A DNA stretch of 64,000 nucleotides from Escherichia coli. GTDB taxonomy: Bacteria; Pseudomonadota; Gammaproteobacteria; Enterobacterales; Enterobacteriaceae. Positions 12,001-12,148 of this stretch are shown here, piece after piece; the stretch's first letter is position 1; each line of letters opens with the position of its first letter. A program made the position numbers. The stretch is taken from assembly GCF_048403405.1 (NCBI RefSeq), contig NZ_CP183129.1; one strand, written 5' to 3'.

Positions 12001-12148
12001 ATTTCTGCATGGTTATGCATAACCATGCAGAATTTCTCGCTACTTTTCCTCTACACCGTCTTTATATATCGAATTATGCAAAAGCATATTTATTCCGAAA
12101 ATTCCTGGCGAGCCAATAAATAAGAATTGTTCTTATCAATATCTCTAA

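What the first reader, a model, noticed from the sequence alone, without database searches (positions are those of the whole stretch)
12003..12032. Perfect 30-bp palindrome between rhtA and dps
ttctgcatggttatgcataaccatgcagaa is a perfect 15+15 palindrome immediately after rhtA and upstream of the dps promoter. It may be more than a terminator (for example a binding site for a dimeric regulator); the dps promoter is known to be bound by multiple nucleoid proteins.
Basis: seen in the sequence. Interest (0 to 1): 0.25.

Follow-up and report, generated by a model that had tools for sequence, protein, structure and literature searches.

The report
Stem-loop ending the rhtA transcript
The perfect 30-bp palindrome after rhtA is real, but it behaves as an ordinary RNA hairpin marking the end of the rhtA message, kept by compensating mutations across enteric bacteria, not as a docking site for a regulator of dps.

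Summary
TTCTGCATGGTTATGCATAACCATGCAGAA (12003-12032) is a perfect 15+15 palindrome. It starts 8 nt after the rhtA stop codon and ends 260 nt before the dps ATG. It is the longest perfect inverted repeat in the window and occurs once per genome in 5420 of 5426 complete E. coli genomes.

In 59 Enterobacteriaceae species a hairpin sits at the same place. Fourteen of 16 base pairs show compensatory double changes, loop length varies from 3 to 9 nt, and G·U pairs outnumber A·C mismatches 41 to 9 on the rhtA-sense strand. The spacer-free perfect palindrome exists only in Escherichia. This is selection on an RNA stem-loop, not on a protein-binding DNA sequence.

The tail after the stem is usually AAUAUyC rather than a U tract. 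A C-rich, G-poor stretch follows in 55 of 59 species. The best reading is the 3'-terminal stem-loop of rhtA mRNA, of the class that protects the ends of Rho-terminated transcripts, with at most weak intrinsic terminator activity in E. coli. It would also shield dps from read-through.

No mapped 3' end or Rho-dependence data could be found, so the termination mechanism is inferred. Interest is low: this is a new member of a known kind.

The parts
11107..11994 (+). rhtA coding sequence (threonine/homoserine exporter), stop codon TAA at 11992-11994
   Evidence: ORF list. RefSeq annotation of the identical K-12 region. 100% tblastn match.
12003..12032 (+). Perfect 15+15 palindrome. As RNA it forms a 13-bp stem (12003-12015 with 12020-12032) with a UGCA loop (12016-12019).
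   Evidence: Covariation in 59 species. Covariance model hit of 41.3 bits, E = 5e-8, the only significant site in the window.
12033..12040 (+). Weak U-rich tail (UUUCUCGC; 4 U in 8)
   Evidence: Not called by the terminator scan. Recalled d-score of -4.3 against +34 to +47 for three canonical terminators in the same window.
12033..12110 (+). C-rich, G-poor tract (19 C, 9 G in 78 nt), a candidate Rho-utilisation region
   Evidence: Sliding 78-nt C/G ratio is 2.1-2.4 here and about 0.7-1.3 elsewhere. C exceeds G in 55 of 59 species in the 60 nt after the hairpin.
12193..12292 (+). Conserved dps core promoter and 5' UTR (CTATTA-N4-GATAGG block, invariant GCTATACTT, Shine-Dalgarno). Context only, not part of the hairpin.
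   Evidence: 16-genus alignment of the intergenic region.
12293..12796 (+). dps coding sequence (context)

Best explanation
The palindrome is the DNA image of the 3'-terminal stem-loop of the rhtA mRNA.

Proposed mechanism:
1. RNA polymerase transcribes past the rhtA stop codon.
2. A stable 13-bp hairpin forms 8 nt downstream of the stop.
3. Transcription ends just beyond it, most likely by Rho loading on the untranslated C-rich, G-poor tract that follows. In E. coli the weak UUUCU tail may help.
4. 3'-to-5' exonucleases trim the transcript back to the hairpin, which then protects the message.
5. As a by-product, the tightly regulated dps promoter about 200 nt downstream is insulated from rhtA read-through.

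Shown here: the structure, its position, its conservation by compensatory change, its sense-strand bias, the lack of a conserved U tract, and the C>G tract.

Inferred: that termination is Rho-dependent, and that the hairpin acts as an exonuclease barrier.
For: - Position and stability. The hairpin starts 8 nt after the stop codon, at -18.7 kcal/mol and z = -5.2.
- Conserved position. In 80 Enterobacteriaceae loci rhtA and dps stay adjacent with a gap of about 300 bp. A hairpin follows the rhtA stop within about 15 nt in most loci (5-15 nt in the 59 aligned species).
- Covariation. On a MAFFT alignment not fitted to the structure, 14 of 16 pairs show both-side changes and 86% of cells are paired, against 30-46% when the partner columns are slid. 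The covariation score is 0.483 against 0.18 in shuffles, reached by 0 of 500 shuffles (RNAalifold agrees).
- Sense-strand bias. There are 41 G·U against 9 A·C cells on the + strand. The sense fold is more stable than the antisense fold in 48 loci against 28.
- No conserved U tract. The tail after the G/C core is typically AAUAUyC, and only 13 of 83 loci score above 0 on the classic terminator score.
- C-rich tract. A C>G tract lies directly downstream.
- Agreement with a described class. Dar & Sorek 2018 (PMC6061677, abstract read) describe stable stem-loops not followed by U-rich sequence, with rut sites immediately downstream, that protect Rho-dependent transcripts from PNPase and RNase II.
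- Replacement in distant genera. Where the conserved hairpin is lost (Mangrovibacter L072 and L075, LSJC7 L084), a short hairpin followed by a U run occupies the same place. That fits a termination role for this position.
- Single copy. It occurs once per genome and matches no Rfam family.
Against: - No experimentally mapped RNA 3' end was found at the hairpin. The Term-seq tables of Adams et al. 2021 hold no entry naming rhtA and none at K-12 coordinates 849,140-849,199. This may only reflect low rhtA expression.
- No bicyclomycin or Rho data could be retrieved.
- The C>G tract is short and AT-rich, so it is only rut-like.
- The near-invariance of UU...AAU at the stem base and of one internal C-G pair is not explained by a purely structural role.
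- The sense versus antisense statistics are not corrected for phylogeny.
Confidence: 0.72

Rival explanations
1. It is a plain Rho-independent (intrinsic) terminator of rhtA. The hairpin plus the UUUCUCGCUACUUUU tail releases RNA polymerase without any factor.
For: A stable hairpin lies directly after the stop codon. In E. coli the tail has 4 U in the first 8 nt. A common allele (A12032T, seen in SK0189 and FHI_NMBU_03) gives UUUUCUCG and a score of +22.7. Distant genera have a hairpin plus U run at this position.
Against: The consensus scan does not call it. The recalled d'Aubenton-Carafa score is -4.3, against +34 to +47 for the opgE, ompX and dps terminators in the same window. The U tract is not conserved: the median is about 3 U in 9 nt, typically AAUAUyC, and 70 of 83 loci score below 0, although the hairpin itself is strongly conserved.
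Confidence: 0.3
2. It is a DNA operator for a dimeric transcription factor that acts on dps or rhtA.
For: It has perfect dyad symmetry in Escherichia. The arms TTCTGCATGG and CCATGCAGAA are identical from Escherichia to Enterobacter and Lelliottia. TT...AAT and one C-G pair are nearly invariant.
Against: - The arm interiors change by paired, compensatory substitutions (for example CTGCATG, CAGCATG, TACCGTG, CCGCATC, TTGCCGG), which a fixed protein specificity does not predict.
- The span between the conserved ends varies from 24 to 28 nt and the loop from 3 to 9 nt.
- The centre is asymmetric outside Escherichia.
- G·U is tolerated on one strand only.
- The element lies about 210 nt upstream of the dps -10 hexamer, beyond the conserved promoter block.
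- No paper linking a regulator to it was found.
Confidence: 0.04
3. It is a DNA-level structural element: a cruciform-prone inverted repeat that recruits Dps or other nucleoid proteins to the dps upstream region.
For: The Ozoline laboratory reports that Dps-bound regions are enriched in inverted repeats and that Dps binds its own regulatory region. One DNase I-protected site lies about 175 bp from primer F1, which maps to about window 12039, next to the palindrome (PMC5553809, PMC4433220).
Against: - In the same work the distal fragment that contains the whole palindrome (F1-R1, about 11864-12077) bound Dps less well than the proximal fragment that lacks the left arm (F2-R2, about 12025-12283).
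- The strand asymmetry (G·U over A·C, sense fold more stable) points to RNA rather than duplex DNA.
- The spacer-free form that favours cruciform extrusion is confined to Escherichia.
Confidence: 0.04
4. It is a specific cis-regulatory RNA element in the rhtA 3' UTR. This could be a binding site for an RNA-binding protein or ribonuclease (for example ProQ, RNase III or RNase E next to the stem), or the terminator of a 3'-UTR-derived small RNA, and it would control rhtA mRNA stability.
For: Sequence conservation goes beyond what pairing needs. UU...AAU at the stem base is kept in at least 54 of 59 species, along with an internal C-G pair. There is no conserved U tract. The AAUAUU or AAUUU directly after the stem fits the RN|WUU RNase E preference (from general knowledge, not tested).
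Against: No Rfam family matches. No literature or interactome evidence was found. There is no second copy elsewhere that would suggest a shared recognition motif. The conservation could reflect limited divergence and AT-rich intergenic composition.
Confidence: 0.1

Closest known systems
3'-terminal protective stem-loops of Rho-dependent transcripts (Dar & Sorek 2018, Nucleic Acids Res 46:6797; PMC6061677)
   Same: It is a stable stem-loop directly after the coding region, without a U-rich tail in most species, with a C-rich, G-poor tract immediately downstream. The proposed role is as a barrier to PNPase and RNase II.
   Different: Rho dependence and the exact RNA 3' end are not demonstrated for rhtA. 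The E. coli version has a partial U run, and one common allele scores as an intrinsic terminator.
Rho-independent (intrinsic) terminators, such as the opgE/ompX bidirectional terminator at window 10194-10223 and the dps terminator
   Same: It is a hairpin just downstream of a stop codon on the coding strand, and it separates two co-oriented genes.
   Different: The stem is longer and more A/U-rich, with only 6 G-C pairs in its 13 bp. It lacks the run of 5-8 U. It scores -4.3 against +34 to +47 on the classic hairpin and U-tail score.
REP/BIME extragenic palindromes
   Same: It is an extragenic palindrome at a gene's 3' end that can stabilise the upstream mRNA.
   Different: It is single-copy and locus-specific. 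It has no REP consensus and no clustering in inverted tandem.
Palindromic operators of dimeric regulators (OxyR and MntR sites of the dps promoter)
   Same: It has dyad symmetry and lies in the rhtA-dps intergenic region.
   Different: The known dps sites lie in the conserved block about 160-210 bp further downstream. This element keeps its pairing rather than its sequence, and its spacing is variable.

Membership tests
Rho-independent (intrinsic) terminator | Stable stem-loop directly downstream of a gene on the transcribed strand | tested here: met
   13-bp stem with a 4-nt loop, -18.7 kcal/mol, 8 nt after the rhtA stop.
Rho-independent (intrinsic) terminator | Run of U (about 5 or more in 8 nt) immediately 3' of the stem | tested here: not met
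   The tail is UUUCUCGC, 4 U in 8. It is not called by the scan. The d-score is -4.3 against +34 to +47 for canonical terminators in the window, and 70 of 83 orthologous loci score below 0. The A12032T allele does meet the criterion (+22.7).
Rho-independent (intrinsic) terminator | Factor-independent RNA release at the U tract, or a mapped 3' end there | not testable with these tools
   No 3' end is listed for this site in the Adams et al. 2021 Term-seq tables. Other data sets were not held.
Rho-dependent terminator with protective 3' stem-loop | Stable stem-loop not followed by a U-rich sequence | tested here: met
   The hairpin is conserved in 59 species with a tail that is typically AAUAUyC.
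Rho-dependent terminator with protective 3' stem-loop | C-rich, G-poor rut-like tract immediately downstream | tested here: met
   19 C against 9 G in 12033-12110. C/G is 2.1-2.4 there against about 0.7-1.3 nearby. C exceeds G in 55 of 59 species.
Rho-dependent terminator with protective 3' stem-loop | Read-through on Rho inhibition (bicyclomycin), and 3' end trimmed by exonucleases | not testable with these tools
   No data were retrievable.
Operator of a dimeric transcription factor | Half-site sequence conserved with fixed spacing, independent of arm complementarity | tested here: not met
   14 of 16 pairs show compensatory changes. The span varies from 24 to 28 nt and the loop from 3 to 9 nt. 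The spacer-free palindrome occurs only in Escherichia.
Operator of a dimeric transcription factor | Match to a known binding motif, or binding data | not tested
   No motif library was available. Comparison from memory with the LexA, NsrR, PdhR, MntR and OxyR consensus sequences gave no match (a lead only). No literature was found.
REP/BIME or other repeated palindromic element | Many copies per genome | tested here: not met
   One locus per genome in 5420 E. coli genomes. The covariance model finds no other significant site in the window or in 455 kb of related loci.
Curated RNA family (Rfam 15) | Covariance-model match at or above the gathering score | tested here: not met
   Only chance-level hits overlap the site: RUF4 at 22 bits, E = 0.19, and mir-19 at 18 bits, E = 4.

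The most novel reading that the evidence does not exclude
The hairpin may be a specific recognition element rather than a generic 3' stem-loop. Its stem base (UU...AAU) and one internal C-G pair are nearly invariant across at least 15 genera, while the rest covaries and no U tract is kept. This could mark a dedicated RNA-protein or ribonuclease site that sets rhtA exporter mRNA stability, or that gates read-through into dps.
Probability: 0.1. Interest if true: 0.45.

Novelty: new member of a known kind. Interest (0 to 1): 0.15.

Why it matters
The practical value is for annotation. The element marks the 3' boundary of the rhtA transcription unit and the upstream limit of the dps regulatory region, and it should not be read as a regulator site when dps promoter constructs are designed. 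Published dps fragments start either upstream of the palindrome or inside it.

It is also a clean, covariation-supported example of a conserved 3' stem-loop without a U tract followed by a C-rich tract, which could be used to test the Rho-plus-trimming model on a single gene.

rhtA is used in threonine and homoserine production strains, so its 3' end may affect mRNA stability there. Nothing here would surprise a specialist.

Tried and rejected
- **Repeat family.** Rejected. The element is single copy per genome and the covariance model R1 finds no other significant site. The one off-site hit, L079:338-378 (24 bits, E = 0.013), is a different hairpin.
- **Rfam.** Nothing at or near a gathering score.
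- **Experimental 3' ends.** The Adams 2021 Term-seq tables have no entry for rhtA or for K-12 coordinates 84914x-84919x. No supplement text is held for Dar & Sorek 2018, Grünberger 2022 or Herzel 2022. The id tried for Peters et al. 2012 (PMC3521626, recalled from memory) is not held.
- **Literature searches.** Searches for rhtA + dps + palindrome or terminator gave 0 papers. Searches for rhtA with Rho, ProQ or Hfq gave nothing relevant beyond an SroA-rhtA sRNA target report that does not concern the 3' end.
- **Dps and cruciform reading.** Considered because of the Ozoline laboratory papers. Set aside because the palindrome-containing fragment bound Dps less well, and because of the RNA-strand bias.
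- **Similar palindrome at 61995-62015.** The covariance model scores it at only 11 bits, E of about 8, so it is not treated as related.
- **Terminator d-score.** The formula is recalled from d'Aubenton Carafa et al. 1990 and was not verified here. It is used only as a relative measure against canonical terminators in the same window.

Full report
**Observation**

The window is an E. coli chromosome segment. It is 100% identical to strain TUM14771 and 97.8% identical to K-12 over 11900-12300. Positions 12003-12032 read TTCTGCATGGTTATGCATAACCATGCAGAA, with two 15-nt arms that are 100% complementary and no spacer.

The rhtA CDS is 11107-11994, with stop codon TAA at 11992-11994, so the palindrome begins 8 nt after the stop. 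The dps CDS starts at 12293 and the invariant TATACT hexamer lies at 12241-12246.

The palindrome is not a chance feature:
- None of 100 shuffles gave a match with up to 3 mismatches.
- It is the longest perfect inverted repeat in the 64-kb window.
- The RNA fold is -18.7 kcal/mol with z = -5.2.

**Within E. coli**

A 45-nt query centred on the palindrome finds one locus in 5420 of 5426 complete genomes. The two 'places' per genome are the two strands of the palindrome. Identity is at least 99% in 4079 genomes and shows one mismatch in 1341. K-12 is identical. In two of the five other E. coli strains aligned (SK0189, FHI_NMBU_03) the outermost pair is lost (A12032T), which lengthens the following T run to TTTT. 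One strain (HS30-1) carries an IS1 between the hairpin and dps.

**Across genera**

A scan of one genome per species with RhtA returned 80 loci from Escherichia, Citrobacter, Salmonella, Enterobacter, Lelliottia, Leclercia, Kosakonia, Buttiauxella, Atlantibacter, Cedecea, Pantoea and others. rhtA and dps are adjacent and co-oriented in nearly all, with a gap of about 270-410 bp that is mostly close to 300 bp.

A hairpin follows the rhtA stop within about 15 nt in most loci, 5-15 nt in the 59 aligned species. In a 16-genus alignment of the whole intergenic region only three things are conserved: this hairpin, the dps core promoter block (CTATTA-N4-GATAGG ... GCTATACTT), and the 5' UTR with its Shine-Dalgarno sequence. 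The roughly 170 nt in between are not alignable.

**What is conserved is the pairing**

These counts come from a MAFFT alignment of 59 distinct sequences that was not fitted to any structure (A2):
- 14 of 16 pairs have changes on both sides that keep the pair.
- 86% of cells are standard pairs, against 30-46% when the 3' partners are slid by 1-3 columns.
- The covariation score is 0.483, against 0.18 in column shuffles (reached by 0 of 500) and 0.05-0.13 in the slid controls.
- RNAalifold independently predicts the same helix.

Arm cores include CTGCATGG, CAGCATGA, TGGCATGA, TACCGTGG, CCGCATCG, TTGCCGGA, TCGCACG and CAGCTGG, each with its complement. Even within Escherichia, E. albertii has a C-G to U-A double change.

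The span between the conserved outer T and A varies from 24 to 28 nt and the loop from 3 to 9 nt. A spacer-free perfect palindrome exists only in the six Escherichia sequences. Elsewhere the centre is an ordinary asymmetric loop.

**Which molecule folds**

On the rhtA-sense strand there are 41 G·U or U·G cells against 9 A·C or C·A cells. The sense strand folds more stably than its reverse complement in 48 loci against 28, a mean difference of about 1.1 kcal/mol with Wilcoxon p of about 0.003, not corrected for phylogeny. This favours a hairpin in the rhtA transcript over a duplex-DNA site, a cruciform or an antisense RNA.

**What kind of 3' hairpin**

The simple terminator scan does not call it. 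After the G/C core the tail is AAUUUCUCG in this window and typically AAUAUyC in other genera, with a median of about 3 U in 9 nt.

I scored the site with the classic hairpin and U-tail discriminant. The formula is recalled from d'Aubenton Carafa et al. 1990 and is used only as a relative measure. This site scores -4.3, while three canonical terminators in the same window (opgE, ompX, dps) score +34, +47 and +38. Only 13 of 83 orthologous loci score above 0, and the A12032T allele scores +22.7.

Directly after the hairpin lies a C-rich, G-poor tract:
- There are 19 C and 9 G in 12033-12110.
- The 78-nt window C/G ratio is 2.1-2.4 there, against about 0.7-1.3 elsewhere.
- Across 59 species C exceeds G in 55, and the skew is larger than in the rest of the intergenic region (p of about 7e-7).

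This matches the class described by Dar & Sorek 2018: stable stem-loops not followed by U-rich sequence, with rut sites immediately downstream, protecting Rho-terminated transcripts from PNPase and RNase II (PMC6061677).

In a few distant genera that lack the conserved hairpin (Mangrovibacter, LSJC7) a short hairpin followed by a U run sits in the same place. That fits a termination role for this position.

**Mechanism I commit to**

The element is the 3'-terminal stem-loop of rhtA mRNA. After the ribosome leaves at the stop codon, the hairpin forms. Polymerase is released shortly downstream, most likely by Rho acting on the C-rich untranslated tract, possibly helped in E. coli by the weak U run. 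Exonucleases then trim back to the hairpin, which stabilises the message. The dps promoter is thereby insulated from rhtA read-through.

The structure, conservation, strand bias, tail and C>G tract are shown. Rho dependence, trimming and insulation are inferred. Confidence that it is an RNA 3' stem-loop of this general kind is about 0.7. Between the two termination modes I lean towards Rho plus trimming over a purely intrinsic terminator.

**Rivals**

- *Dimeric-regulator operator.* This is contradicted by the compensatory changes, the variable spacing, the asymmetric centres outside Escherichia and the one-strand wobble tolerance. The site also lies about 210 nt upstream of the dps -10 hexamer, outside the conserved promoter block. 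No paper links a regulator to it.
- *Dps or cruciform.* The Ozoline laboratory's fragment F1-R1 (about 11864-12077, palindrome intact) bound Dps less well than F2-R2 (about 12025-12283, left arm absent), although one DNase-protected spot maps next to the palindrome at about 12039 (PMC4433220).
- *Repeat family.* Excluded.
- *Curated RNA family.* None matches.

**Unexplained residue**

UU...AAU at the stem base (at least 54 of 59 sequences) and one internal C-G pair (52 of 59) are nearly invariant while the other pairs covary. This could be limited divergence plus AT-rich context, or a sequence-specific contact such as a ribonuclease or RNA-binding protein. I could not test it.

**Missing experimental support**

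The Term-seq tables of Adams et al. 2021 hold no 3' end for rhtA or at the corresponding K-12 coordinates, possibly because rhtA is poorly expressed. Other data sets were not available as text.

**Verdict**

It is an ordinary kind of feature, a gene-end RNA stem-loop, and the regulator-site idea is not supported. It is a new member of a known kind, and interest is low.

Noticed in passing
window 61995-62015: A 10+1+10 perfect palindrome, TTCTGTATGA-C-TCATACAGAA. Its arms resemble those of the rhtA hairpin (TTCTGcATGg). It lies between two minus-strand ORFs (62055-63107 and 60546-61979), 16 nt upstream of the ATG of the 477-aa ORF. The rhtA-hairpin covariance model scores it at only 11 bits (E of about 8).
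   Followed up: partly
window 10194-10223: A textbook bidirectional intrinsic terminator, AAAAAATCCGCC-CCGAGA-GGCGGATTTTTT, between convergent opgE (+, ends at 10190) and ompX (-, ends at 10239). [quoted passage not shown]
   Followed up: partly
window 12032 (allele seen in L002 and L003): In two of the five other E. coli strains aligned (SK0189, FHI_NMBU_03) A12032 is T. This shortens the palindrome to 14+14 but lengthens the following T run to TTTT. The classic terminator score rises from -4.3 to +22.7, so E. coli lineages may differ in how intrinsic this terminator is.
   Followed up: partly
L006 2222-2919 (E. coli HS30-1): An IS1X2 element is inserted between the rhtA hairpin and dps, about 90 bp downstream of the hairpin. 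It stretches the rhtA-dps gap to about 1.07 kb and separates the hairpin from the dps promoter.
   Followed up: no
window 12033-12192: Apart from the C-rich start, the middle of the rhtA-dps intergenic region is not alignable between genera, yet the total gap length stays close to 300 bp in most of the 80 species. The conserved length without conserved sequence is unexplained.
   Followed up: no
window 12060-12070, and A2 columns about 75-85: A short YTTATAT(A/T) motif recurs about 25-35 nt after the hairpin in many genera: E. coli CTTTATATAT, and Buttiauxella, Cedecea and Enterobacter Ag1 CTTATATT. It could be a -10-like element or a nucleoid-protein site. The Ozoline laboratory places a weak distal dps promoter 'P3' somewhere in fragment 11864-12077.
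   Followed up: no
L072, L075, L084 (Mangrovibacter spp., Enterobacteriaceae bacterium LSJC7): These distant relatives lack the conserved TATT...AATA hairpin after rhtA. Instead they carry a short G/C hairpin followed by a U run, so a different terminator type occupies the same position.
   Followed up: partly
window 12791-12869: Weak Rfam hits below gathering score (ctRNA_p42d at 26.9 bits; STnc70 at 19.4 bits) fall on the dps terminator region. They are probably just terminator-hairpin resemblance.
   Followed up: no
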